DNA of 10,689 nucleotides from a virus: the UHGV virus genome UHGV-0361391. The stretch is one strand, 5' to 3'. The notes under the pieces are model-generated. The model saw only the letters and a list, made by a program, of their open reading frames with translations, was not told the origin of the DNA and did no database searches. Made by a program: the position numbers and the translations under genes. Positions 1-10,689 of the stretch are shown in pieces (position 1 is the first letter of the stretch; the number at the start of each line of letters is the position of its first letter).

Positions 1-141
1 TCTGATGATATTTTTCCCTGAAGGCTGCCGGGGAGATATTCCCCAGACGAGAGTGACGACGCTGACGATTGTAGAAAATCTCAATGTATTCCCGTATTAC
101 TGAGATGGCTTCATCCCGGTTATTAAAACGATAGTGGCTCA
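1..141 (-). mobile_element. IS3-family insertion sequence fragment: 3' part of transposase orfB (C-terminal region, continues past window start), separated from the rest of the gene by the inserted element
   Basis: Minus-strand translation of 141->1 reads SHYRFNNRDEAISVIREYIEIFYNRQRRHSRLGNISPAAFREKYHQ, matching the conserved C-terminal region of IS3-family (IS150-like) transposases (YIEIFYNRQRRHS...SP..F). It is in frame with the fragment at 10549-10689 once the insert is removed. Confidence 0.8.
138..141. repeat. Left copy of CTCA direct repeat flanking the inserted element (putative target-site duplication; 5 bp CTCAT/CTCAG if one mismatch is allowed)
   Basis: CTCA at 138-141 and again at 10549-10552, immediately outside the inferred element termini. 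In the IS reading frame both copies sit in the same codon phase (cTG AGt / aTG AGc). Confidence 0.5.
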
Positions 142-330
142 TGTAACCAGGTGAATCATTTGATACCGACAAGGGTTTTAGTGAAAGGAGGTGAAATCAC
201 CTGTAAGATGCTGAAATAAAACAGGTGATGTATACTTCGGACGGAAAACTCTTTTTGATACCGACTGCTCAACAAATAGTCAAAAGATCAAAAAACGGCG
301 ACACATTTGATACTGCTAATTTACCCTTAA
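142..330. repeat. Left end (attL-like) with three putative transposase-binding repeats
   Basis: TTTGATACCGAC at 159-170 and 254-265, TTTGATACTGCT at 306-317; these lie 17, 112 and 164 bp from the inferred terminus, resembling the Mu L1/L2/L3 layout. The same motif occurs in inverted orientation at the right end. Confidence 0.6.
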
Positions 331-497
331 AATCTTCTTCAAAACATCTTCAAACTGCCAAAATGCTCACATAATCGATCTAACTATAATCAGTATGATA
401 ATCATCATGAATTACTATTCAATAGCGTGATTATCTTGGGATGAGTCATATGATCTCTATATGTATTTACAGCACCACCTCATGATAGCGATGGCGC

Positions 498-1109
498 TTA
501 ACCAACAACATTTTTCTTTACTGTCACTGCCCCTGATTCCTGGGTGGCGTTATTGCTCGAGTTGTACTTCTCAATAACGCGCAAAATCTCTTTGTCTGTT
601 TCTTCACTTCCCGCCATTCCTATCTTTATTGCATTTTTTAGTACGGGACGTAATGGCAAGGCATCAATGATGCTTTCTACCGCATCCTGGCTGATTGTAG
701 ATGTATTCATTGCTGCCAGCCTGACAAGGTTGTTAGTACCTTCTCGCCTGATGAATGTAAGGATTAATTGCTTCTCTTGGGGGCTTAGAGAGCTAAGCGC
801 CTGATCAATACCCGAACCTGAATCGCAATTTTTTTCGATTTTTCCGCATTCATCTTCGTTCTTGCCTGTGGCCAACCATTCGAGTGAACAATTACAGGCT
901 TTAGCTATTAAGGCCAGTTTATCCAAAGGAGGGAAGTTTTTCCCCTTCCTGTAATTTCTTACTGTGGCTTCAGATAGTCCACAAAGGGTCGCCAGTTCGA
1001 CGTTTGTCATGTTTCCCATAGCCATAGCTAAGCGTTCTGAAAATCGGTTTATTCCTTCCATATCAATAAACCGTTCCGCACTGGATACGGTTTTTTCTGC
1101 CTTATCCAT
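498..1109 (-). CDS. XRE-family helix-turn-helix transcriptional repressor (prophage immunity repressor candidate, Mu c position)
   Basis: 203-aa ORF with an N-terminal HTH_XRE-like segment (NMTNVELATLCGLSEATVRNYRKGKNFPPLDKLALIAKACNCSLEWL). It is transcribed toward the left end, divergent from ner, as Mu c is. RBS AGGGGG lies 4 nt upstream of the ATG. Confidence 0.8.
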   Translation of the reverse strand: MDKAEKTVSSAERFIDMEGINRFSERLAMAMGNMTNVELATLCGLSEATVRNYRKGKNFPPLDKLALIAKACNCSLEWLATGKNEDECGKIEKNCDSGSGIDQALSSLSPQEKQLILTFIRREGTNNLVRLAAMNTSTISQDAVESIIDALPLRPVLKNAIKIGMAGSEETDKEILRVIEKYNSSNNATQESGAVTVKKNVVG

Positions 1110-1265
1110 ATAACCCCCTATAAAACAAAGAAATTATCGACATCGCATTTAATTTCGATATGCTCGCAAAAAACCGTTGATATCGAATTATTTTGCGATT
1201 ATGATTTACCTAAATCGATAACCGGTTTTGATTATCGGTTCAGGTAAACATGAGAGGATCACACA
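1110..1265. promoter_or_regulatory. Divergent early control region between repressor and ner with repeated TATCGA/TCGATA operator-like half-sites
   Basis: Half-sites TATCGA (1135-1140), TCGATA (1155-1160), TATCGA (1182-1187), TCGATA (1215-1220) and TTATCGG (1232-1238) form dyads in the 156-bp intergenic region. The position corresponds to the Mu operator/enhancer region. Confidence 0.45.
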
Positions 1266-1532
1266 ATGAGGGTATCCAGACAAGCATCGAATAATTTGTT
1301 TGTTCGAGAGGGGTGTGACTGGTCTGCTAAAGCGGTATATGCAGCCCTTGAAAACAAAGGCACAGACCTCCCTGAACTGGAAAGGGAGTTAGGATTAAAA
1401 AGCGGATCAATGCGCAATGTGTTTTACCGCCAGTGCCGTAAATACGAAGCCGCCATCGCCGAAAAAATAGGGGTTGAACCTGCTGTAATCTGGCCCAGCA
1501 GATACCAGGTGGACGCCAGAGAAGTGGCTTGA
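1266..1532 (+). CDS. ner: Ner-like DNA-binding protein (Mu Ner / Nlp family)
   Basis: 88-aa ORF containing the conserved VIWPSRYQ motif shared by Mu Ner and E. coli Nlp. It is the first rightward gene after the repressor, with a GAGAGG RBS upstream. Confidence 0.85.
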   Translation: MRVSRQASNNLFVREGCDWSAKAVYAALENKGTDLPELERELGLKSGSMRNVFYRQCRKYEAAIAEKIGVEPAVIWPSRYQVDAREVA

Positions 1533-1542
1533 TGGGGGATGT

Positions 1543-2967
1543 ATGTGGGTAACAGCAAAAGAATGTGTTGGTCTTCCTGATTTACCAATGATGGAACATA
1601 ACATTCGCCATCGACTCACAAAAGCAGCTGCGGGAAATGCAGCCATGTTACGCAAACGTAAGGGGACAAAAGCAATCGAATTTAATATCGATTGTTTGCC
1701 TTCTGGCGCGCAACAAGTATTGCGTGAACGTTATGCCCTTCAACTGATGACGCAAAAAGCTGATGAATCACCGGCTCCGGTGGTGACAAAGGCCAGACGC
1801 TCATCTGCCGTGGTTGATGCGGTGGAGGCATATCGCGGATCACCACAACTGATGCTCGAACGCCTCAATGCCCTGACTGAAAACCAGCGCCAGGTGGCTG
1901 ATGCACGAATCGCGATCGTCAGCGAAGTTCTGAAAGTCGCGCAACAACCTGGTTTCAGCTGTGCGAAGGCTATCCGGTTTATCGTTGACAACCTGGCACG
2001 TTCGCAACTGAACGAGCGCATTGTGGCAATGGTTGAGACGGCGAACGCCAAAAAGGGAAACAGCCGTGCGTTGAGTGAAATCACGCTGAAACGCTGGATT
2101 GCAGCCTTTAACAAGGCGCAGAACGCCGCTGAACGCCTGCTTTTGCTGGCACCTGGTAAGCGCCAGGAAATAAAAGCCGAAGATATTAACTGGCTGCCCG
2201 AATTTCTGGCGCAGTATCGCCAGTCAAACGGCCGACCAATGACCGAGGCTTACGAGGATTTTGTCGCTGAATGGCAGTACCGGCACGCTGATGAGCCTTA
2301 TATGCTCGATATCATGCCGTCTTATGACACCATTCGCCGCGCAATGAAGAAACTGCCGGAAGTGGTGAAACAAAAAGGCCGGGTGACCGGCAGTGAATAC
2401 CGCCAGCTTGAGGGATTCACGCGCCGCGACTGGTCCAGAATGCCGGTGAATTATGTCTGGATTGGTGGCTCCGGGGATGCACAGATGGTCAGCAATATGT
2501 TTGTGGCAAAAACCGGCTCTGTCGGTGCACAGGCGGATTACAGTGGCCCGGCCTGGTATCTGCTCGACTGCTCCCGCGCGGTAAAACCGCTGATTTACCA
2601 GGATCGCCGCAAGGCCGAACTGGTTGCCCAGACAAAAGTCGATGAAGGCCGTGCGTTTACTGATAACGAGTTTGTGTTCGGTGCTTCCGCCCGTCGCAAT
2701 GTGGGCTACGGCTTCTGGCAGATGGCCTACATGATGCAGTCACCGCTGACGCTGGATGCGCTGTGGCACGGCTGGTCAGCCATGCGTGACTTTAAGGCTG
2801 ACGGTGGCCGCAAACTCGGCATCAAACCCACCCATATTGTTGTCCCCACTTCGCTGGAAAAACAGGCGGTGCAGCTGCTGGAGCGCGAGCTGTTCGCGGA
2901 CGGTAACGCCACAGTCTCTAACGAGATGAAGGGCAAGCTGGAGCTGGTTGTCGCGGATTATCTGTAA
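1543..2967 (+). CDS. Chimeric ORF: Mu transposase A-like N-terminal DNA-binding region (about aa 1-310) fused in frame to a Mu gpT-like major head subunit C-terminal region; transposase catalytic core absent
   Basis: The N-terminus MWVTAKECVGLPDLP...GTKAIEFNIDCLP parallels MuA MELWVSPKECANLPGLP...GKAIEYNANSLP (domain I-alpha), and similarity continues to about NYVWIGGSGD (compare MuA QWINGDGY around D269). The remainder (WYLLDCSRAVKPLIYQ...RRNVGYGFWQMAYMM...IVVPTSLEKQAVQLL) does not resemble the MuA core and sits immediately upstream of the DUF1320 gene, where Mu encodes T. Confidence 0.6.
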   Translation: MWVTAKECVGLPDLPMMEHNIRHRLTKAAAGNAAMLRKRKGTKAIEFNIDCLPSGAQQVLRERYALQLMTQKADESPAPVVTKARRSSAVVDAVEAYRGSPQLMLERLNALTENQRQVADARIAIVSEVLKVAQQPGFSCAKAIRFIVDNLARSQLNERIVAMVETANAKKGNSRALSEITLKRWIAAFNKAQNAAERLLLLAPGKRQEIKAEDINWLPEFLAQYRQSNGRPMTEAYEDFVAEWQYRHADEPYMLDIMPSYDTIRRAMKKLPEVVKQKGRVTGSEYRQLEGFTRRDWSRMPVNYVWIGGSGDAQMVSNMFVAKTGSVGAQADYSGPAWYLLDCSRAVKPLIYQDRRKAELVAQTKVDEGRAFTDNEFVFGASARRNVGYGFWQMAYMMQSPLTLDALWHGWSAMRDFKADGGRKLGIKPTHIVVPTSLEKQAVQLLERELFADGNATVSNEMKGKLELVVADYL

Positions 2968-3010
2968 ACGGTGAGCCGGGCTTACGGCCCGGCCCCTGCG
3001 GAGGGCAAAT

Positions 3011-3370
3011 ATGAATGAACATCACACTGTGGCAGCAACAGATGATTCAGGCCTTCAGGTCAGTGGTGACAGTCCTGTCACGGTACTGGCAGAAGTGCGT
3101 TGCAGTCGTACGCATTTTCGTCGTGCGGGGTTCCTGTTCATGCGGGGACGCCAGCAGGTTGACGTCACCCCGGAGCAGCTTGCCCGACTGGAAGCGGAGC
3201 CATGCCTCACTGTACGAATACTACAGACGCCTGGTGATGATGCGGGAGCCGTGGCGGGTGTGGTTCATGCAGAGACCGGTGCAGATTTAGCCGAAGCCGA
3301 AACCGTACAGGATGCTCCCCGGAAAAAGACCGGCAATAACGCCAGACAGGCGAAAAAGGCGCGCGCATGA
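3011..3370 (+). CDS. Hypothetical small Mu-like head-region protein (position of Mu gp35)
   Basis: 119-aa ORF with GGAGGG RBS, translationally coupled (ATGA overlap) to the downstream DUF1320 gene. Assignment is by position only. Confidence 0.5.
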   Translation: MNEHHTVAATDDSGLQVSGDSPVTVLAEVRCSRTHFRRAGFLFMRGRQQVDVTPEQLARLEAEPCLTVRILQTPGDDAGAVAGVVHAETGADLAEAETVQDAPRKKTGNNARQAKKARA

Positions 3371-3786
3371 ATTACGCCACCGAAACCGATATGCGGGCAC
3401 GTTACCGCGAGGATTTGCTCAGGCCATTACTGGCCGTGCCCCGTTCGGATGAACCGGACACGCGCAAGCTGAACCGGGCACTGACGGACGCGTCTGCCCT
3501 TATCGACAGCTATCTGTCTTCCCGTTACACGCTGCCGCTGGCGGTGGTTCCGGCAGTTCTTGTTCAGCACTGCTGCACGATTGCCTTTTATTACCTGTGC
3601 GATCAGCGGGCATCCGATCAGGCGCGTGACCGTTACCGTGAGGCGCTGGCATGGCTGAAAGATGTCATGAACGGTAACGTGCCGGTCGGCGTGGATACCG
3701 ACGGTGCGGCCCCTGAATCCGGGGACTTACCGCAGGTACAGTCTGATGTGGCGGTGTTCGGGCGCAACCAGAAGGGCTTTATATGA
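3367..3786 (+). CDS. DUF1320-family phage protein (Mu gp36-like)
   Basis: 139-aa ORF with the typical DUF1320 pattern (N-terminal M.Y.T..DM.ARY, central LPL..VP..L, C-terminal ..GF) and typical size. Start overlaps the upstream stop. Confidence 0.75.
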   Translation: MNYATETDMRARYREDLLRPLLAVPRSDEPDTRKLNRALTDASALIDSYLSSRYTLPLAVVPAVLVQHCCTIAFYYLCDQRASDQARDRYREALAWLKDVMNGNVPVGVDTDGAAPESGDLPQVQSDVAVFGRNQKGFI

Positions 3787-4347
3787 TTACGGAAACCGAA
3801 CAGGCATATATCACCCGTATTCGTGAGTATTTCGGGAATGAACTGGTGTCTGTTGACACACATCCCGGCGACTGGAGCGACAGCGTGCTGCGCACCATGC
3901 TGATTAACGCCCCGGCTATCCTGGACGGGTAAACAGCTGCTTGCCGAGCGTTTCCCTGACACGTCGCGCCTGCTGCTGGAAGACTGGGAGCGTTATCTCG
4001 GGCTTCCCGAGTGTGATATGGCCGGAGCCACCCTCACGGAGCGACAGCGTTATGCCGGCAATAAATACCGGATGAAGCCCTCGCTGAACCGTGAATTTTA
4101 TATCCGGTTTGCGGCGGAGTTTGGTTATCAGATTGACATTCAGCCCTCACCGGATTCGCAGTGGGTCAGTATTGTCACGATTAACAGTGAAACCGGCTAC
4201 CGGAATATGAATGTGCTGGATGATATTCTCACGCCGCTGCGTATTTATGAAGGCAGTGCGCTGGAATGTATTCTGAACCGTTATAAGCCTGCATGGCAGA
4301 CGTTTATTTACGTTTATGCAAACAGCCATGAAGAGGAGACTATTTAA
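3783..4347 (+). pseudogene. DUF2313-family phage tail protein (Mu gp48-like), disrupted by a +1 frameshift near 3928-3930
   Basis: Frame 0 gives MITETEQ...INAPAILDG then a stop at 3930-3932; frame +1, open from 3904, continues KQLLAERFPDTSRLLLEDWERYLGLPE... to 4347 and carries the conserved DUF2313 FPDT...L..WER.LGLP motif. Removing one G from the GGG run would give a single ~188-aa protein. Confidence 0.65.
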
Positions 4348-5258
4348 TGTTTCATGTTGATAATAATTCCGGCGTGGCGAATATGCCTGCGCTGGCACCG
4401 GCGCAGAGTAATACCACCACCTGGTTTACCGAAGGTGACGGACAAAAAGGTATCAGCTGGATTGGTCAGGACTGGCTGAATATTCTCCAGGCCGAACTGC
4501 TGAATATTCTGGCTGAAGCCAGTATTCAGCCGGATAAGGCGCAGTTAAACCAGCTTACGCTGTCCATTAAAGCCATTATCGCTGCGAATGCCTTTTCCCG
4601 GAAAAATAACCTGAAAGAAATTGCTGATGCCGGTGCGGAGGCCCAGCGTCTGGCCCGTGGTTATCTTGGTCTGGGGACGCTTGCCACAAAAAACAGTCTT
4701 GGTCCCGGTGACGTTAATGCCCTGGCGAAGGATCAGAATCTCGCCGACCTGGAGAATAAGGGAACCGCCCGTAATAATCTGGATGTTTACAGCAAAAGCG
4801 AAGGTGATAACCGTTACCTGCGCAGGGAGCAGAACGGCGCAGACATTCCGGATAAAGGGGCTTTTATCGATAACGTCGGTTTACGGGAAACGGTGAATAA
4901 GGCGGCGAATGCTCTGCCATCGGACGGCACCGCCGTTGCCGCGAATAAACTCTCCACCCCAAGAAATATTAATGGCGTTCCTTTTGACGGGACGCAGGAC
5001 ATATACATTACCTCCGGTATGACTGAAGCTACTGCTGATAACAAATACGTTAGCAACGTTCAGCTTGGTGCCCAGAGTTACCATTCACCCGGAGGTAATG
5101 AAATGTCCTGGAGTTATGGTGCACCTTCTGGTTGTATGCTTTCAGGTATTAACGTGCAGGATACCGGGAAAAGTTCAGCCGATAATATCGGAGGCGTTTA
5201 TTACCGTCCGGTGCAGATATATATCGGTAATGCCTGGCGCACAGTTTCATCCGTCTGA
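4347..5258 (+). CDS. Phage tail fibre protein (Mu S / Stf-like)
   Basis: 303-aa ORF with the conserved tail-fibre N-terminus MFHVDNNSGVANMP...WLN.LQAE shared by Mu S and E. coli Stf proteins. GAGGAG RBS; TAATG overlap with the upstream DUF2313 gene. Confidence 0.85.
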   Translation: MFHVDNNSGVANMPALAPAQSNTTTWFTEGDGQKGISWIGQDWLNILQAELLNILAEASIQPDKAQLNQLTLSIKAIIAANAFSRKNNLKEIADAGAEAQRLARGYLGLGTLATKNSLGPGDVNALAKDQNLADLENKGTARNNLDVYSKSEGDNRYLRREQNGADIPDKGAFIDNVGLRETVNKAANALPSDGTAVAANKLSTPRNINGVPFDGTQDIYITSGMTEATADNKYVSNVQLGAQSYHSPGGNEMSWSYGAPSGCMLSGINVQDTGKSSADNIGGVYYRPVQIYIGNAWRTVSSV

Positions 5259-5266
5259 TTAAAGGA

Positions 5267-5289
5267 AAAGGGTGCGATAAGCACCCTTT
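5267..5289. terminator. Perfect hairpin between convergent tail fibre and tail-fibre assembly genes (likely bidirectional terminator)
   Basis: AAAGGGTGC-gataa-GCACCCTTT: 9-bp perfect stem with a 5-nt loop, flanked by A/T-rich sequence on both sides, between the stop at 5256-5258 and the minus-strand stop at 5293-5295. Confidence 0.55.
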
Positions 5290-5292
5290 ATG

Positions 5293-5865
5293 TTATTCAG
5301 GCTTCTCCGGCCATTTAATGGCGTCAAATTCAGCTTTGTTTTTAATCGCTGGTAGTTCCATTTTTTTCACCTGACTGATGTATTTCATCCATCGTGTAAG
5401 CGCAGCTCTGTTTTCATCACTAATCGTGCCCAGCTGTAACTCAGTTCTCCAGTCATTAATCTTTTCATATGCCTGATTAAGATATGACTGGCGCAGTGCT
5501 TCCGCTTTTTTGGTATAGTTAACCGGGAGTTGTGAGATGACACCATTATCAAACTTCCAGTTACCTGAAATATCAGTACCTTCAGGTAATTCGTCTGTCT
5601 CAACAACGGAAAAACCCGCAGGATACAGCGCCGAAGCATCCTGTGATATTGAGCAGATAACACCGCTGTCAGGGGTTATGCAAAGTTTATATTTTTTGGT
5701 GAATAATGGCAGGGACTCATAGAAATCCTTACCATCTTCACTTTGAAAATACTGTACATCATTACCAAAGGGTTTTTGTTCCGGGTAATATCGTTTAACA
5801 TTAATCAGTTGCATAAACATCACCATGTAAATCAATGATAAAAACAGGAATAATAATATCGCCAT
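5293..5865 (-). CDS. Tail fibre assembly protein (Tfa / Mu U-like); true start probably the internal ATG near 5814
   Basis: Conserved Tfa features: DASALYPAGFSVVE, ISDENRAALTRWMKYISQV, C-terminal WPEKPE. The first 17 residues of the longest ORF are hydrophobic and likely not translated; MQLINVKRYY looks like the real N-terminus. Confidence 0.85.
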   Translation of the reverse strand: MAILLFLFLSLIYMVMFMQLINVKRYYPEQKPFGNDVQYFQSEDGKDFYESLPLFTKKYKLCITPDSGVICSISQDASALYPAGFSVVETDELPEGTDISGNWKFDNGVISQLPVNYTKKAEALRQSYLNQAYEKINDWRTELQLGTISDENRAALTRWMKYISQVKKMELPAIKNKAEFDAIKWPEKPE

Positions 5866-6118
5866 ATACAGGCAAGGGGTTTCTGAAATAACGCATATTT
5901 TCAGATGCTGACCGCAGCGTCATGAATCGTTAAATCAATTATAAGCCGGTAATATGCGGTTATCGTATTGGCCTGTCCATCCTTTGTCGTTATGTTCCTG
6001 CCTAACCGGCTCCGTCACAAAAAGTACCGTGATGCTTTTTTTGAATTTCCGCAAAACACATATTTATCAGCGGTTGTTATTCTGACTCTGTTTAATTCAG
6101 AAACAGGCAGAAAAGACG

Positions 6119-8173
6119 ATGTCAGACTCCAAGTGGAAAATGCTCTCCGCCATGCCCGGAGAGTTTTCAGTCAAGGTTGCCGGTGGCACGGTGGCATTTA
6201 TTGAAAGCCCTTTCCGCCCTTCGGGTAATAAAGGGGGGATCACCTTCGCAGACTGCGTGATCCGCTTCAGCACGAAAGAGCCATTATGGGTAATGCCGGT
6301 ATCCGGTAATCCCAGTGCAGAAATCACCAGTTCAGGCGTGACTGGCATCATTCCAATCACATCTGACGTGGCCGGAACGCTCACGCCCTCCGACTGGAAT
6401 GCACCGGATAACGCCGGGCCTTCCGGTAGCACGAATGGCAGCAGTTCAGAGCCGGAATATTACTTTGTTGTCATTCTCGCGGGTCAGTCAAATGGCATGG
6501 CCTACGGCGAGGGGCTGCCGTTACCGGATTCGTTTGACCGCCCGGACCCACGCATTAAGCAACTGGCACGCCGCAGTACGGTAACGCCCAACGGTACGTC
6601 GTGTACATACAACGACATCATTCCGGCAGACCACTGCCTGCATGATGTTCAGGATATGAGCGGGATAAACCACCCGAAAGCTGATCTGGCAAAAGGCCAG
6701 TACGGGACTGTCGGTCAGGGGTTGCATATTGCCAAAAAACTGCTTCCCTATATCCCACAGAATGCGGGGATACTTCTGGTGCCCTGTTGTCGTGGCGGGT
6801 CAGCATTCACCACTGGAGCCGACGGCTCATTCAGTGAGGCCAGCGGTGCTTCCGCTGATTCTTCACGCTGGGGGGCCGGTAAACCTCTGTATCAGGACCT
6901 GGTAAGCCGCACCAAAGTCGCGCTGGCGAAAAACCCGAAAAACAAACTTCTGGCTGTGGTCTGGATGCAGGGAGAGGCAGACCTTGCCTCAGGAAGCCAG
7001 CAGCATAATAGTTTATTCACGGCCATGGTTCAGCAGTTCAGAACTGACCTGGCTCCGCTTGCTGCGCAGTGCGTGAGTGGAAATGCCACCACGGTGCCGT
7101 GGATTTGCGGTGATACCACGTATTACTGGAAAAACGCTGGCACCGATAAATATGAGGCAGTATACGGTGGCTACAAAGGCAAGGAAGCACAGAAAATTTT
7201 CTTTGTACCGTTCCTGACGGATGAGAATGGACAGAGCACGCCAACGAATGCTCCGGCGGAAGACCCGGATATTGTGGCTGTCGGGTATTACGGTGCAGCA
7301 TCCCGAACCCAGGGCAGTTTTGTTTCGACACAGCGTGACAGCCATTTCAGCTCATGGGCACGCAGGGGCGTCATTTCAGACCGTCTGGCCTCAGCTATTA
7401 TGCTCCATGCAGGGCGCACGGCTGAACTGATGCGCGGGCAGACCGTGACACCACCGGATGAGAAGCCGTCACCTGATACACCATCAAAACCGTCCACGCC
7501 ACCCGCAGACACCACGACGATGAGTACGCTATTTGCTTACCGGGCATCTGAGTCTGAAGGACGGTTGACACCACAGGGTTGGGCTGCCGGAGGTGGCAAG
7601 GCTCAAATCGTGGATGATGCCGGAGCCAGCGGGGGTAAGGCAATGAAACTGACCAAGGAAACAGGAAGAGCCCCCTGGTACCTTGAGCATGATGCTGGTA
7701 ATGGTGCGGACCTGCTGGGTAAAGGTGGTCTTGTCAGTTGTCGTTTTAAACTCGATGGCGCGCTTACGGCTAATCAGTACGCACTGGCGCTGTACTGGCC
7801 GGTTTCTGCCCTGCCGCAAGGGGTTACTCTGGAAGGAAATGCCGGTCATAACCTGCTGGCATCGTTCTACGTACAGAGCGATGCCACAGACCTTAACGTG
7901 ATGTATCACAAAGGAAACACGGCGCAGAACACGAAGCTGGGGTCATTCGGCGCATTTAATAACGAATGGCATACGCTGGGCTTCCGTTTTGCCGGTAACA
8001 ACAGTATTGAGGTGACGCCGGTCATTGATGGTAAGGACGGGACACCATTCATGCTGTCGCAGTCTCCGGTCGGCACGTTTACGGCAGACAAGTTGCGCGT
8101 GACCGATATCACTAAAAATGCGACTTACCCGGTACTGATTGACAGTATCGTGGTGGAAGTGAATAACGCGTAA
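6119..8173 (+). CDS. SASA-family carbohydrate esterase (sialate O-acetylesterase-like, NanS-p-like) with Pro/Thr/Ser-rich linker and C-terminal lectin-like beta-sandwich domain
   Basis: 684-aa ORF. The central region carries the SASA/SGNH-type GQSNG motif (FVVILAGQSNGMAYGEG) and a later VVWMQGEAD block. A linker PPDEKPSPDTPSKPSTPPADTTT precedes a ~190-aa C-terminal domain with lectin/LamG-like character. The gene lies downstream of the tail fibre module, as prophage nanS-p genes do. Confidence 0.75.
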   Translation: MSDSKWKMLSAMPGEFSVKVAGGTVAFIESPFRPSGNKGGITFADCVIRFSTKEPLWVMPVSGNPSAEITSSGVTGIIPITSDVAGTLTPSDWNAPDNAGPSGSTNGSSSEPEYYFVVILAGQSNGMAYGEGLPLPDSFDRPDPRIKQLARRSTVTPNGTSCTYNDIIPADHCLHDVQDMSGINHPKADLAKGQYGTVGQGLHIAKKLLPYIPQNAGILLVPCCRGGSAFTTGADGSFSEASGASADSSRWGAGKPLYQDLVSRTKVALAKNPKNKLLAVVWMQGEADLASGSQQHNSLFTAMVQQFRTDLAPLAAQCVSGNATTVPWICGDTTYYWKNAGTDKYEAVYGGYKGKEAQKIFFVPFLTDENGQSTPTNAPAEDPDIVAVGYYGAASRTQGSFVSTQRDSHFSSWARRGVISDRLASAIMLHAGRTAELMRGQTVTPPDEKPSPDTPSKPSTPPADTTTMSTLFAYRASESEGRLTPQGWAAGGGKAQIVDDAGASGGKAMKLTKETGRAPWYLEHDAGNGADLLGKGGLVSCRFKLDGALTANQYALALYWPVSALPQGVTLEGNAGHNLLASFYVQSDATDLNVMYHKGNTAQNTKLGSFGAFNNEWHTLGFRFAGNNSIEVTPVIDGKDGTPFMLSQSPVGTFTADKLRVTDITKNATYPVLIDSIVVEVNNA

Positions 8174-8180
8174 GCAGGAT

Positions 8181-8223
8181 AAAAAAATCCCGCCGGTCAA
8201 AGAGCCATTTGTTGACTGGCGGG
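8181..8223 (-). terminator. Hairpin with adjacent A7/T7 tract, oriented as an intrinsic terminator for leftward transcription
   Basis: CCCGCCGGTCAA (8189-8200) pairs with TTGACTGGCGGG (8212-8223), 12 bp with one G-U pair. AAAAAAA at 8181-8187 gives a U-tract only on the minus-strand transcript. Confidence 0.4.
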
Positions 8224-8338
8224 TGATATTCCAAACCCATTAAGGAAAGCTACAACCTCTGACAAAGAAGACCATTATGTACGCGGTTACTTTTTAGCTG
8301 AAAACTGTTTCTGTAGTCAATATCAAAGGTAAGGTTAT

Positions 8339-8521
8339 ATGACATTTGTTCATACGATGCTGCTTTATTTCTGCACTGTGGTCAGTGCGTTATATCTGGT
8401 GAGCGGTGGTTATAAGGCCATCAGAAATTATGTTCGCCGCAAAATTGATGACGCAGCAGCTGAAAAGCTCAGTAAAACAGCGCAGGCAACTCCGCTCCCA
8501 AAAGACCCGACCCAGCCCTGA
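8339..8521 (+). CDS. Hypothetical small membrane protein (single predicted TM helix)
   Basis: 60-aa ORF with an AAGG RBS; hydrophobic N-terminal segment FVHTMLLYFCTVVSALYLVSGGY followed by a charged tail. Lies in an AT-rich islet. Confidence 0.4.
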   Translation: MTFVHTMLLYFCTVVSALYLVSGGYKAIRNYVRRKIDDAAAEKLSKTAQATPLPKDPTQP

Positions 8522-8556
8522 TTGCAGGGCTGTATTCCCACATAAGGAGGATATAC

Positions 8557-8811
8557 ATGCCAGAGATTAAAGGCACCGTCACTGAAGTCCTGGTAAAACA
8601 GGCACTGTATTCCGGTGAAGTAAATAAATTACTGAAAGCGCAGGTCCGCAAGGATTTTGAGGCACAAATCGACACTTACGTTGATGAAGTGCTGGCAAAA
8701 CTTATTGGGCCAGCAGTTGCGGCCAGTGATGCTGATAATGAGCCGAAAACCGACGCGCAGCCAGAGCAACCAGACCCGGCTCAGCCCGGAACTGACAGTA
8801 CCATGATGTAA
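8557..8811 (+). CDS. Hypothetical protein (helical N-terminus, acidic proline-rich C-terminus)
   Basis: 84-aa ORF preceded by a strong AAGGAGG RBS with 7-nt spacing, followed by a hairpin (AAACCGG...CCGGTTT, 8818-8843). Confidence 0.5.
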   Translation: MPEIKGTVTEVLVKQALYSGEVNKLLKAQVRKDFEAQIDTYVDEVLAKLIGPAVAASDADNEPKTDAQPEQPDPAQPGTDSTMM

Positions 8812-8978
8812 CAATACAAACCGGTGGTGTCCTCTGCCGGTTTGACACTAATGAAAACATCTTTGCCGCTATCCAGCCATATGTAATCGCTGGATAGTAT
8901 TTCGTATTCAGAAATATAGCTGCTTATGGAGCAGTCAATCCTGCTTCCCCATCCGGGCAGGCAAATGAACCGGTATCA

Positions 8979-9272
8979 TTAGTCCGATTCACGCTTTTGT
9001 AGAATCGTTCCCAGAATGCTATACAGCTCATTAGCCTGTTGCTCCATCATTGAGACGGAGGCTATACGGTGCAAAGTGATTTCAGGAGGTGGCACACCTC
9101 CATCTTCTTGCTGTGGAGGAAAAACATAAGATTTAATAAAAAAGTTGAAGCATATGAACTCTCCCGCACTCGAACTGTATTTGCAGGCATCTGAATAATC
9201 GGAAAAATAATCATTATAGATTTCCGCATTTTCAATCATTTTTCGATTTCTCGTCGTTACATGATTGTCCAT
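8979..9272 (-). CDS. Hypothetical protein, unknown function
   Basis: 97-aa minus-strand ORF with an AGAGG RBS 5 nt upstream of the ATG; AT-rich codon usage differs from the surrounding phage genes; divergent from com-mom. Confidence 0.45.
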   Translation of the reverse strand: MDNHVTTRNRKMIENAEIYNDYFSDYSDACKYSSSAGEFICFNFFIKSYVFPPQQEDGGVPPPEITLHRIASVSMMEQQANELYSILGTILQKRESD

Positions 9273-9460
9273 AGCAGCCTCTTACGCTGGCAATTAACCA
9301 ATTGACTTCTATAAATTAGTTGATTTGTTTGCTTTGCGGTATTCAAATGTACAATCATTCAGCACTTATGCGTTACAGCACCGTTTAAAATTAGTGATCA
9401 AACTCATAAATTTTCGCTAATGACATTTCGTGTTATTTGTTGTATCAATTAAATAAATCA

Positions 9461-9485
9461 AATCGATCGTTTTTGTCGATCGATT
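9461..9485. promoter_or_regulatory. Perfect palindrome with two GATC (Dam) sites upstream of com-mom; candidate methylation-sensitive regulatory site
   Basis: AATCGATCG-tttttgt-CGATCGATT (9-bp arms, 7-bp spacer) with GATC at 9465-9468 and 9478-9481, in the AT-rich intergenic region about 45-70 bp upstream of the com start. Phage Mu mom is controlled through clustered GATC sites upstream of its promoter. Confidence 0.45.
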
Positions 9486-9528
9486 GAGTGATAAAGATAT
9501 CAACAACAAAGCAGGAGGTTATGCGGCC

Positions 9529-9729
9529 ATGTATCGAAACATACGGTGCCGACATTGTAACAAGCTACTGGCACGAGCCAGCTTCAGTTATCTGGAAGTC
9601 AAATGTCCGCGCTGTAAAACCCTCAATCAAATCACATCTCAGAGCGCCACAGAGCACCCCACATACACAAGGAAATCCTGTCGTGGGGAACAGAAAGCAA
9701 GTTACATCCCGTATCATCAGCACGCCTGA
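9529..9729 (+). CDS. com: Com-like zinc-finger translational regulator of mom
   Basis: [34 protein letters not shown]... parallels Mu Com MKSIRCKNCNKLLFKADSFDHIEIRCPRCK with the same C-x2-C...C-x2-C spacing. AGGAGG lies 10 nt upstream of this ATG. It overlaps the 5' end of the mom-like ORF as in Mu. Confidence 0.75.
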
Positions 9730-10420
9730 ACTTATTCACTATAACGACAATATCGTCGGTTATGGCTCCCGTGAGTTACGGGTTGAGACAATAAGTTGCT
9801 GGCTGGCCCGGCTGGTCGTCGTCAATAAACATTACAGCCATCGTTTCGTAAATAATTCCTACCTTCATCTGGGCATATTTTCAGAACGGGAGCTGGTTGG
9901 CGTAATGCAATGGGGTTATGCCCTTAATCCAAACAATGGTGCACGCGTCGTAACTGGCACGCAGAACCGCGAATATATGGAGCTTAACCGGTTATGGCTG
10001 CATGACTGTATGCCGAGAAACTCCGAATCAAGGGCAATCAGTTACGCGCTCAAACTAATCAGACAACTTTATCCGCAGGTGCAGTGGGTTCAGTCGTTTG
10101 CAGATGAGCGTTGTGGCTGTCTTGGTGTCGTGTACCAGGCAAGCAATTTTGATTATGTAGGCAGTCATGAAACAACATTCTATGAACTTGATGGCGAGTG
10201 GTATCACGAGATTTGCAAGAATGCAATCAAACGAGGAGGACAGCGAGGTGAACATCTGCGGGCTAATATCGACAGAGCCAGTGTTCATAAATTCCGTCAG
10301 TTTCGTTACATCCGGTTTCTGGACAAGAGAGCCAGAAAACGCCTTAACACAAAGCTATTCAAAGTCCAGCCTTACCCAAAACCACAAACAGTTAAAACTG
10401 GTTTGAAAGAGAGTGAATGA
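9683..10420 (+). CDS. mom: Mom-like DNA modification protein; start uncertain (candidate GTG at 9683, alternative ATG at 9905)
   Basis: Long ORF in the +1 frame relative to com and overlapping its 3' end, at the extreme right end of the element. Size from the GTG (245 aa) is close to Mu Mom (231 aa). AAGGA lies 9 nt upstream of the GTG. Confidence 0.6.
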
Positions 10421-10548
10421 ACGCTTAAAAACTCATTCTAAAACTCAAAAGAAAAGCGCCGATTTAGTATCAAATAAGTTGCGTATCGGCGTTTTTCAGC
10501 GGTATCAAATGAAATGCAAATCGGTATCAAAAAAATCGCCGCGCTATA
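10421..10548. repeat. Right end (attR-like) with three putative transposase-binding repeats in inverted orientation
   Basis: GTATCAAA cores at 10467-10474, 10502-10509 and 10524-10531 (reverse complements TTTGATACTAA, TTTGATACCGCT, TTTGATACCGAT). The innermost-to-terminus spacing (17 bp) equals that at the left end, and the sites are closely packed as Mu R1-R3 are. Confidence 0.6.
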
Positions 10549-10552
10549 CTCA
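10549..10552. repeat. Right copy of CTCA direct repeat flanking the inserted element (putative target-site duplication)
   Basis: Identical to 138-141 and in the same codon phase of the interrupted IS transposase. Confidence 0.5.
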
Positions 10553-10689
10553 GGCTCTCATTTTTCAGCGTTCCCCAGAAGCTTTCCATCGGAGCGTTGT
10601 CGTAACAGTTACCTTTACGCGACATTGATGTTTTCAGACCAAACTGCTCCTGTATGACCCGGTAATCGTATGCGCAGTACTGTGAACCT
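10549..10689 (-). mobile_element. IS3-family insertion sequence fragment: internal part of transposase orfB (DDE domain region), truncated by the insertion; gene continues past window end
   Basis: Minus-strand translation of 10688->10549 reads GSQYCAYDYRVIQEQFGLKTSMSRKGNCYDNAPMESFWGTLKNESLS, the conserved IS3-family catalytic-domain block (SMSRKGNC.DNAPMESFFGTLK). The frame then runs into element sequence and stops. Confidence 0.8.

What the first reader, a model, noticed from the sequence alone, without database searches (positions are those of the whole stretch)
1543..2967. In-frame chimera of a MuA-like transposase N-terminus with a capsid C-terminus
The first ~310 residues track MuA domains I-alpha to I-gamma up to the first catalytic-core motif (VWIGGSGD versus MuA WINGDGY). 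The sequence then switches to a region that looks like the C-terminal part of a Mu gpT-type major head protein, directly upstream of the DUF1320 gene as in Mu head gene order. This implies one deletion removed the transposase core, B, the middle region and most head genes while keeping the frame open. The product keeps the end- and enhancer-binding domains without catalysis, so it could act as a decoy that interferes with transposition of incoming Mu-like phages; that role is speculative.
Basis: inference. Interest (0 to 1): 0.7.

Follow-up and report, generated by a model that had tools for sequence, protein, structure and literature searches.

The report
Deletion-made transposase–capsid fusion gene
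An 18-kb deletion inside a Mu-like prophage of E. coli joined the DNA-binding front of its transposase, in frame, to the back half of its capsid protein; the fusion is real, but it looks like ordinary prophage decay rather than a purpose-built anti-phage decoy.

Summary
ORF 1543-2967 (474 aa) is transposase residues 1-308 fused in frame to major-head-protein gpT residues 150-315. The two DNA halves are 99.9% and 99.3% identical to intact A and T genes in other E. coli genomes. They meet at a 2-bp microhomology (TG, 2466-2467). Against an intact relative (FORC_069) the deletion is 18,133 bp. It changes the first catalytic Asp codon (GAC) to GGC and removes the other two DDE residues, B, the early and middle genes and most head genes.

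The junction is not an assembly artefact: the exact protein is recorded on 13-15 contigs from independent sequencing runs. It occurs in 0 of 5,426 complete E. coli genomes, so it marks one rare lineage.

The window holds a whole 10.4-kb mini-Mu remnant (142-10548). It keeps both ends, an intact repressor and ner, and a second, out-of-frame 9,961-bp deletion. It sits inside IS600.

Other independent in-frame A' fusions exist (A'::Mor, A'::DUF6645, A'::F-like). The best reading is therefore an accidental by-product of illegitimate recombination during prophage decay.

The decoy idea is mechanistically conceivable, by analogy with the P-element KP repressor, but it is untested. It is weakened because the gene lies behind a repressed early promoter and carries a truncated capsid half.

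The parts
1..141 (-). Left flank: 3' part of the IS600 (IS3 family) orfB, interrupted by the prophage. Bases 138-141 (CTCA) are the left copy of the target duplication.
   Evidence: Translation gives an IS3-family OrfB C-terminus. The empty site in E. coli B-1109 is annotated as IS3/IS600 transposase.
142..330 (+). Mu-like left end. It starts TGTAACC and carries three putative transposase-binding sites (TTGATACYG at 160-168, 255-263 and 307-315).
   Evidence: All matches to other prophages start at 142. The motif occurs 13 times against 4.3 expected, clustered at both ends. It forms inverted repeats with the right end.
498..1109 (-). Intact CI-type repressor gene (203 aa).
   Evidence: Pfam Phage_CI_repr and HTH_3. 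One amino-acid difference from the repressor of the DLI.5a prophage.
1177..1205 (+). Early (Pe-like) sigma-70 promoter candidate: TTGATA-17-TATGAT, upstream of ner.
   Evidence: Consensus scan, 10 of 12 matches. This is a consensus match only.
1266..1532 (+). Intact ner-like gene (88 aa).
   Evidence: Pfam HTH_35, E 2e-20. Identical to the DLI.5a copy.
1543..2467 (+). A' part of the fusion: transposase residues 1-308, covering the I-alpha, I-beta and I-gamma-like DNA-binding domains plus about 35 residues of orphaned core.
2466..2467 (+). Junction of deletion 1: a 2-bp microhomology (TG). Codon 309 becomes GGC (Gly) in place of GAC, the first DDE aspartate.
   Evidence: Three-way alignment of the window with intact A and intact T. 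BLAST against the intact FORC_069 prophage shows that L010 1874-20006 (18,133 bp) is missing.
2468..2967 (+). 'T part of the fusion: major head protein gpT residues 150-315 and the stop codon.
   Evidence: Pfam PF10124, E 4e-50. PDB 9jod_A, E 2.7e-65. 100% identical to the JKHS016 gpT C-terminus.
3011..3370 (+). Intact gp35-like gene (HI1506-related / FluMu_N domain).
   Evidence: Pfam PF17891 and PHROG 3622. Identical to the JKHS016 copy.
3367..3786 (+). Intact gp36 / DUF1320 head-tail adaptor-like gene.
   Evidence: Pfam Phage_Mu_Gp36, E 7e-36, and PHROG 195.
3783..3932 (+). Truncated gp37 (DUF1834). It has 46 native residues, then ILDG and a stop. It spans the junction of deletion 2 (TATC microhomology, 3917-3920).
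   Evidence: Alignment to the intact gp37 and gp48/YmfQ genes. L010 21460-31420 (9,961 bp) is missing.
3921..4347 (+). 3' remnant of the gp48/YmfQ baseplate gene (residual ORF 4018-4347).
   Evidence: 99.5% identical to the AST198 YmfQ gene 3' part. Weak Pfam Phage_Mu_Gp48 hit.
4347..5865 (.). Tail-fibre gene (4347-5258, + strand) and tail-fibre assembly gene (5293-5865, - strand).
   Evidence: Pfam Caudo_TAP on the called gene. RefSeq annotation of relatives.
6119..8173 (+). SASA/DUF6645 gene (684 aa), a cargo gene of this prophage family.
   Evidence: Pfam SASA and DUF6645. Present in intact relatives.
9484..10420 (+). com/mom DNA-modification module.
   Evidence: Pfam Mom. RefSeq annotates Com and Mom in relatives.
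10465..10548 (-). Mu-like right end with three adjacent binding sites (10465-10473, 10500-10508, 10522-10530). It ends …GCGCTATA.
   Evidence: Logan contigs stop 30 nt beyond 10548, as expected where a unique sequence meets a repeat.
10549..10689 (-). Right flank: the rest of IS600 orfB. Bases 10549-10552 (CTCA) are the right copy of the target duplication.
   Evidence: The empty-site comparison shows ...GTGGCTCAGGCTC... uninterrupted in strain B-1109.

Best explanation
The ORF is a genuine gene fusion made by one illegitimate-recombination deletion inside a Mu-like prophage of E. coli.

Shown:
- A break just 5' of the first DDE aspartate codon of transposase gene A was joined to codon 150 of capsid gene T at a 2-bp microhomology.
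- This removed 18.1 kb: the A catalytic core and C-terminal domains, B, the early and middle genes, mor, the lysis genes, the terminase-, portal- and F/G-like genes, the protease, and the 5' half of T.
- A second, out-of-frame 10-kb deletion removed the tail and baseplate genes.
- What remains is a 10.4-kb mini-Mu with both ends, repressor, ner, a few late genes and com/mom, sitting in IS600 and inherited vertically in one lineage.

Inferred:
- The open frame is the 1-in-3 outcome of a random deletion that is too recent to have decayed.
- The product cannot catalyse transposition or build a capsid.
- It is transcribed only when the early promoter is derepressed.
- It has no selected function. 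What was probably selected is loss of the lethal transposition and lysis functions (prophage grounding).
For: - Two-family split of the protein.
- 99.9% and 99.3% DNA identity of the two halves to separate intact genes, with a 2-bp overlap at the junction.
- Deletion sizes and co-linearity with the intact FORC_069 prophage.
- Residue-exact composition A(1-308)+T(150-315).
- D309, D375 and E415 are invariant in intact relatives. D375 and E415 align with the D and E of retroviral integrase cores. All three are absent here.
- The exact protein is on 13-15 contigs from independent runs and two assembly pipelines. The five contigs fetched all show the same IS600 insertion site and differ by 0-2 SNPs.
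- The junction is in 0 of 5,426 complete genomes, whereas 233 of the 248 genomes carrying this transposase family hold at least 80% of the gene.
- Independent A' fusions to unrelated partners exist: A'::Mor in L012-L014, A'::DUF6645 in L011 and A'::F-like in P0011. Other copies of the prophage carry other internal deletions or inversions (L001, L002, L003).
- The second deletion in the same element is out of frame.
- The repressor is intact, and a Pe-like promoter stands upstream of ner-A'.
- The orphaned core segment 275-310 is predicted disordered.
Against: - Nothing here measures expression, stability or activity, so 'no function' is an inference.
- The retained N-terminal part corresponds exactly to the intact site-specific DNA-binding module. 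In other transposon systems that module is sufficient for dominant-negative inhibition.
- The lineage has kept the ORF intact, with one synonymous polymorphism at 2427. The sample is far too small and young to read as purifying selection.
Confidence: 0.8

Rival explanations
1. Dominant-negative decoy. The fusion protein binds the end sites, and through I-alpha the enhancer, of incoming or co-resident Mu-like phages. It cannot form an active transpososome, so it blocks their transposition, like the KP repressor of P elements.
For: - Domains I-alpha, I-beta and I-gamma-like are retained intact, and all catalytic residues are lost.
- MuA I-alpha binds the enhancer, and I-beta/I-gamma bind the ends (PMC3362531).
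- The KP protein comes from an internally deleted P element and inhibits transposase by DNA binding (Lee, Beall & Rio 1998, listed among the references of PMC7776569).
- The ORF is intact in all carriers seen.
Against: - The gene is the second cistron of the early operon, next to an intact repressor gene, so in a lysogen it should be off. This follows from Mu regulation and is not measured here.
- The repressor already gives homoimmune protection.
- The C-terminal half-capsid and the 35-residue core stub are unlikely to fold, with pLDDT below 50 for residues 275-310. That invites proteolysis.
- The fusion partner varies among independent A' fusions.
- The fusion is limited to one rare lineage and one locus.
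- There is no signal of selection.
Confidence: 0.08
2. Natural mobilisable mini-Mu (not exclusive of the best explanation). The 10.4-kb element is a non-autonomous transposon. A helper Mu-like prophage can transpose it in trans and package it by headful together with about 28 kb of host DNA. On this view the fusion ORF is irrelevant cargo.
For: - Both ends are complete, each with three binding-site motifs in Mu-like spacing.
- The target duplication is intact.
- E. coli genomes often carry several copies of this prophage family, up to 8 places per genome.
- Laboratory mini-Mu elements behave this way (established knowledge, not tested here).
Against: All five contigs fetched show the same insertion site, so there is no sign that the element moved after the deletions. 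Whether the packaging site is retained was not determined.
Confidence: 0.25
3. Assembly or scaffolding artefact that joins two distant parts of an intact prophage.
For: No complete RefSeq E. coli genome contains the junction.
Against: - An identical junction is recovered in independent samples by a SPAdes-type ENA assembly and by Logan assemblies.
- A 2-bp overlap cannot create a de Bruijn join.
- The contigs run continuously from chromosomal genes through IS600, the whole remnant, and IS600 again (L004).
Confidence: 0.01

Closest known systems
Internally deleted, defective Mu-like prophages and laboratory mini-Mu elements
   Same: Both Mu-type ends, the repressor and ner are retained. The transposase and B functions and the morphogenesis genes are deleted. 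The element is non-autonomous. The deletions arose by short-homology illegitimate recombination.
   Different: It is natural rather than engineered. It carries an in-frame A'::'T fusion ORF and a second deletion. It belongs to an E. coli Mu-like lineage whose transposase core is closer in sequence to retroviral integrases than to MuA, and which makes 4-bp rather than 5-bp target duplications.
Phage Mu transposase MuA (PDB 1TNS, 2EZK/2EZL, 2EZH, 4FCY)
   Same: The N-terminal architecture matches: a winged-helix I-alpha followed by helical I-beta/I-gamma-like DNA-binding domains. These are the top structural matches in the PDB. The position in the early operon after ner is also the same.
Mu gpT major head protein (Pfam PF10124; PDB 9jod)
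   Same: Residues 323-474 align to residues 154-305 of the solved capsid protein (E 2.7e-65). The downstream genes (gp35-like, gp36, gp37) follow in Mu order.
   Different: The N-terminal 149 residues are missing, so a complete capsid-protein fold cannot form (inference).
KP repressor of Drosophila P elements; also the Tn5 inhibitor protein
   Same: A truncated transposase made by an internally deleted element (KP). It keeps the site-specific DNA-binding domain and lacks catalysis. This is the mechanistic template for the decoy idea (PMC7776569).
   Different: KP is shown to be expressed, to dimerise and to inhibit transposition, and it has spread in populations. None of this is shown here. 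The Tn5 inhibitor lacks the N-terminus rather than the C-terminus (own knowledge).

Membership tests
Mu-type DDE transposase (MuA family) | N-terminal winged-helix I-alpha domain (Pfam HTH_Tnp_Mu_1) | tested here: met
Mu-type DDE transposase (MuA family) | [quoted passage not shown] | tested here: met
Mu-type DDE transposase (MuA family) | DDE catalytic triad in an RNase-H-like core | tested here: not met
   Intact relatives have invariant D309, D375 and E415. In the fusion, codon 309 is Gly and everything downstream is gpT sequence.
Mu-type DDE transposase (MuA family) | Mu transposase C-terminal domain (PF09299), which in MuA mediates the MuB/ClpX interactions | tested here: not met
   There is no PF09299 hit on the fusion. 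The domain is present in full-length homologues.
Mu-like gpT major head protein (PF10124) | Full-length match to the ~290-position family profile | tested here: not met
   Only profile positions 142-289 are matched. T residues 1-149 are deleted.
Mu-like gpT major head protein (PF10124) | Significant similarity of the C-terminal half | tested here: met
   E 3.9e-50 in Pfam, 4.9e-60 in PHROG 371, and 2.7e-65 to 9jod_A.
Defective Mu-like prophage / mini-Mu | Both transposon ends with multiple transposase-binding sites, flanked by a target-site duplication | tested here: met
   Three sites at each end. The 4-bp CTCA duplication was verified against an empty IS600 site.
Defective Mu-like prophage / mini-Mu | Loss of transposition and morphogenesis genes relative to an intact relative | tested here: met
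   18,133 bp and 9,961 bp are missing relative to the FORC_069 prophage.
Truncated-transposase inhibitors (KP-type) | Encoded by an internally deleted element; retains the DNA-binding domain; lacks the catalytic domain | tested here: met
Truncated-transposase inhibitors (KP-type) | The protein is produced and inhibits transposition of active copies | not testable with these tools
   This needs expression data and an in vivo or in vitro transposition assay. Its position behind a Pe-like promoter, with an intact repressor gene alongside, argues for low expression.

The most novel reading that the evidence does not exclude
The A'::'T protein is a natural, prophage-borne, dominant-negative transposition inhibitor. 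It would be a bacterial counterpart of the P-element KP repressor. Leaky or induced expression would let its I-beta/I-gamma domains occupy the end sites of heteroimmune Mu-like phages, which share more than 85% identity in this region. That would protect the host and make the mini-Mu remnant a domesticated defence element.
Probability: 0.07. Interest if true: 0.6.

Novelty: new member of a known kind. Interest (0 to 1): 0.25.

Why it matters
As it stands, this is a well-resolved example of how transposable prophages are grounded. A single short-homology deletion kills transposition, replication, lysis and head assembly at once and leaves a small, immune, non-autonomous remnant.

It also flags an annotation hazard. 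The protein clusters with 'partial transposases', and its strongest Pfam match is the capsid family, so automated naming could mislabel it.

If the fusion did inhibit related phages, it would be a simple, evolvable route from a decaying transposable phage to a host defence. Nothing here shows that.

Tried and rejected
- Looked for the junction in 5,426 complete E. coli genomes and in the phage collection and found none. This briefly raised the artefact hypothesis. It was rejected once the exact protein was found on 13-15 independent contigs.
- Checked whether carriers differ in insertion site, which would prove mobilisation after the deletion. All five contigs fetched share the IS600 site.
- Checked whether length variants of A in the database (P0048, P0049, P0060, P0063, P0026) are further fusions. 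None carries sequence from another gene; they are plain truncations.
- Literature searches for dominant-negative MuA fragments found nothing usable in the held library.
- An Rfam scan and a repeat scan of the window found nothing relevant to the junction.
- Did not model the full chimera. No legitimate alignment for the T half was available without spending another database search, and the T half already matches a solved structure.

Full report
**1. The observation**

ORF listing shows a 474-aa ATG-initiated ORF at 1543-2967 on the + strand. It splits into two unrelated families.
- PHROG 310 'transposase' covers aa 1-308 (profile positions 8-281 of 696, E 2e-76).
- PHROG 371 'major head protein' covers aa 312-474 (profile 150-303 of 303, E 5e-60).
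- Pfam gives HTH_Tnp_Mu_1 at the N-terminus and Mu-like_gpT for aa 324-474 (profile 142-289 of 289, E 4e-50).
- The solved Mu-type capsid protein 9jod_A aligns at residues 154-305 with E 2.7e-65.

**2. The junction**

Against 5,426 complete E. coli genomes, no place covers both halves. Window 1200-2467 matches intact ner-A regions at up to 99.9% identity (DLI.5a). Window 2463-3800 matches T-gp35-gp36-gp37 regions at up to 99.3% (JKHS016).

The three-way alignment reads as follows:
- A: …TGGATTGGTG|ACGGTCAC
- T: …AAAGTGGATG|GCTCCGGG
- window: …TGGATTGGTGGCTCCGGG

The only shared bases are TG (2466-2467). Codon 309 changes from GAC (Asp) to GGC (Gly).

Residue by residue, the protein is A(1-308), with one substitution (D157N) relative to DLI.5a, followed by T(150-315), which is identical to JKHS016 gpT.

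In the apparently intact prophage of strain FORC_069 (L010) the missing segment is L010 1874-20006, or 18,133 bp. T lies one frame position ahead of A (gene starts at L010 949 and 19559; my arithmetic), and 18,133 leaves remainder 1 on division by 3, so the frame is preserved.

Intact relatives read VWIGDGHG.

**3. What is lost and what is kept**

In a profile of ten intact homologues, D309, D375 (YYSDNGS) and E415 (GIIERLNR) are invariant. D375 and E415 align with the D and E of avian retroviral integrase cores. None of the three is present in the fusion.

An AlphaFold2 model of aa 1-310 (21-sequence alignment, mean pLDDT 70) has confident domains at 1-70 and about 101-270. The segment 275-310 scores below 50. 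The best structural matches in the PDB are MuA itself:
- 1tns (I-alpha): Foldseek probability 1.0, TM-score 0.64 normalised to the target, 32% identity.
- 4fcy (Mu transpososome): probability 0.96.

In MuA, I-alpha binds the transpositional enhancer, I-beta/I-gamma bind the ends, and D269/D336/E392 are catalytic (PMC3362531). So the fusion keeps the site-specific DNA-binding module and nothing else of the transposase. It also carries a capsid half that lacks its first 149 residues.

**4. Context**

The window contains an entire remnant prophage.
- Matches to other prophages begin at 142 (TGTAACC…) and end at 10548 (…GCGCTATA).
- The flanks are the two parts of IS600 orfB. An uninterrupted copy at the same chromosomal locus (next to an anaerobic C4-dicarboxylate transporter gene and hypT) is present in 358 complete genomes. 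Comparison with strain B-1109 shows a clean insertion with a 4-bp duplication, CTCA.
- The left end carries three TTGATACYG motifs (160, 255, 307). The right end carries three in inverted orientation (10465, 10500, 10522).
- The CI-type repressor (498-1109) and ner (1266-1532) are intact. A Pe-like promoter (1177-1205) precedes ner, and the fusion ORF follows ner by 10 nt with a GGGGGA Shine-Dalgarno-like run.
- Downstream come intact gp35-like and gp36 genes, then a second deletion junction at 3917-3920 (TATC microhomology). It truncates gp37 after 46 residues, out of frame, and removes 9,961 bp up to the 3' part of gp48/YmfQ.
- The rest is tail-fibre genes, a SASA/DUF6645 gene, DUF1378, DUF826 and com/mom.
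- The sum of 10,407 + 18,133 + 9,961 bp approaches the size of an intact relative.

**5. Reality and distribution**

The exact 474-aa sequence is on record on 13-15 contigs from Logan and ENA assemblies of different runs. It has no NCBI name.

Five contigs were fetched. They are co-linear with the window, share the IS600 insertion site, and differ by 0-2 SNPs. One shared polymorphism at 2427 is synonymous. Contig L004 runs from chromosomal genes through the whole element.

The junction is therefore real and is inherited within one lineage. There is no evidence that the element moved after the deletions.

The prophage family occurs in 248 of 5,426 complete genomes, and 233 of these hold at least 80% of the A gene. 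The fusion is thus a rare derivative.

**6. Is the fusion special?**

Independent in-frame fusions of A' to other partners exist.
- A(1-~375)::Mor, in a prophage of the same immunity type near yedD (L012-L014).
- A(1-~376)::DUF6645 C-terminus, in a ~4.9-kb remnant (L011).
- A(1-281)::F-like protein (P0011).

Truncated, out-of-frame A variants also occur (P0039, P0048). Three of the four other prophage copies I inspected carry their own internal deletions or inversions (L001, L002, L003).

The partner is evidently arbitrary. The frame of the second deletion in this very element is not preserved, and both junctions carry only 2-4 bp of homology. This is the signature of illegitimate recombination during prophage decay.

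A random deletion is in frame one time in three, and at over 99% identity to intact genes the ORF has had no time to decay. From established Mu biology (own knowledge), loss of A, B and the early lethal functions is exactly what survives prophage induction. Selection therefore plausibly acted on the loss, not on the fusion product.

**7. The decoy hypothesis**

It is mechanistically reasonable. A DNA-binding-only transposase fragment made by an internally deleted element is how the P-element KP repressor works (Lee, Beall & Rio 1998, listed among the references of PMC7776569).

Against it here:
- The gene sits in the early operon next to an intact repressor, so expression in a lysogen should be low.
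- The repressor already provides homoimmune protection.
- The stub of core (275-310) is predicted disordered, and the half capsid domain is unlikely to fold.
- There is no population signal.

I put the decoy at under 10%. A non-exclusive alternative is that the element as a whole is a mobilisable natural mini-Mu. Its complete ends allow this, but the single insertion site does not support it.

**8. Verdict**

The structural interpretation is supported, with small corrections: the breakpoint is at 2466-2468, one gene lies between the fusion and DUF1320, and GSGD is capsid-derived. The functional speculation is unsupported.

This is a new member of a known kind, an internally deleted Mu-like prophage carrying an accidental fusion ORF. 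Interest is modest.

Noticed in passing
window 138-141 and 10549-10552; L001 ends; L002 ends; L011 ~4723 and 9881: Four independent insertions of this Mu-like prophage family are flanked by exactly 4-bp direct repeats (CTCA, GTAC, CGGG, CTAA), not the 5 bp canonical for Mu. The right end terminates …TA rather than …CA, while the left end starts TG. Only the CTCA case was verified against an empty site.
   Followed up: partly
window 3917-3920 (junction); 3783-3932; 3921-4347: A second internal deletion of 9,961 bp relative to FORC_069 joins gp37 (DUF1834) codon 46 to the 3' part of gp48/YmfQ at a TATC microhomology. It is out of frame and removes the sheath, tube, tape-measure and baseplate genes.
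   Followed up: yes
window 1-141 and 10549-10689: The remnant prophage is inserted inside orfB of an IS600 (IS3-family) copy next to the hypT and C4-dicarboxylate transporter locus. The same IS copy, uninterrupted, is present in 358 complete E. coli genomes.
   Followed up: yes
L011 6001-7527; L012/L013 6001-7548; L014 2588-4135; protein P0011: There are other, independent in-frame fusions of the transposase N-terminus: to the C-terminus of the DUF6645 protein (a ~4.9-kb remnant), to full-length Mor, and to an F-like head protein. Two of them break within one codon of each other, at the second catalytic Asp (…FLYYSD/N).
   Followed up: partly
L001 30559-31325; L002 18723-19940; L003 17292-26803: Other copies of this prophage in complete genomes carry their own large internal deletions. 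One (JKHS016) has an internal inversion with truncated tape-measure, portal and protease genes. Internal rearrangement seems frequent in this family.
   Followed up: no
window 1543-1710 (first ~55 codons of the fusion); The first ~166 nt of the A gene (the I-alpha recognition region) are highly variable among otherwise 95-98% identical A genes. In the two copies compared here (window/DLI.5a versus FORC_069) this variation goes together with a different repressor/ner region, suggesting an immunity-linked enhancer-binding specificity.
   Followed up: partly
window 5003-5965 versus L010 32503-34277: Relative to FORC_069, the window lacks the gin-like recombinase gene and the alternative tail-fibre segment. 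The same gin-less arrangement is found at 99.9% identity in strains JE86-ST02 and JE86-ST05, so it is a pre-existing variant and not a third new deletion.
   Followed up: partly
window 6119-8173: A 684-aa gene with SASA (sialate O-acetylesterase-like) and DUF6645 domains sits between the tail-fibre genes and com/mom. It is conserved in all relatives examined, and its role (cargo or tail-associated enzyme) is unknown.
   Followed up: no
L002 20632-20711; L010 17664-17743: RefSeq annotates a 'tRNA-OTHER' of 80 nt, on the strand opposite the neighbouring head genes, between the F-like and G-like head genes of intact relatives. This region is deleted in the window.
   Followed up: no
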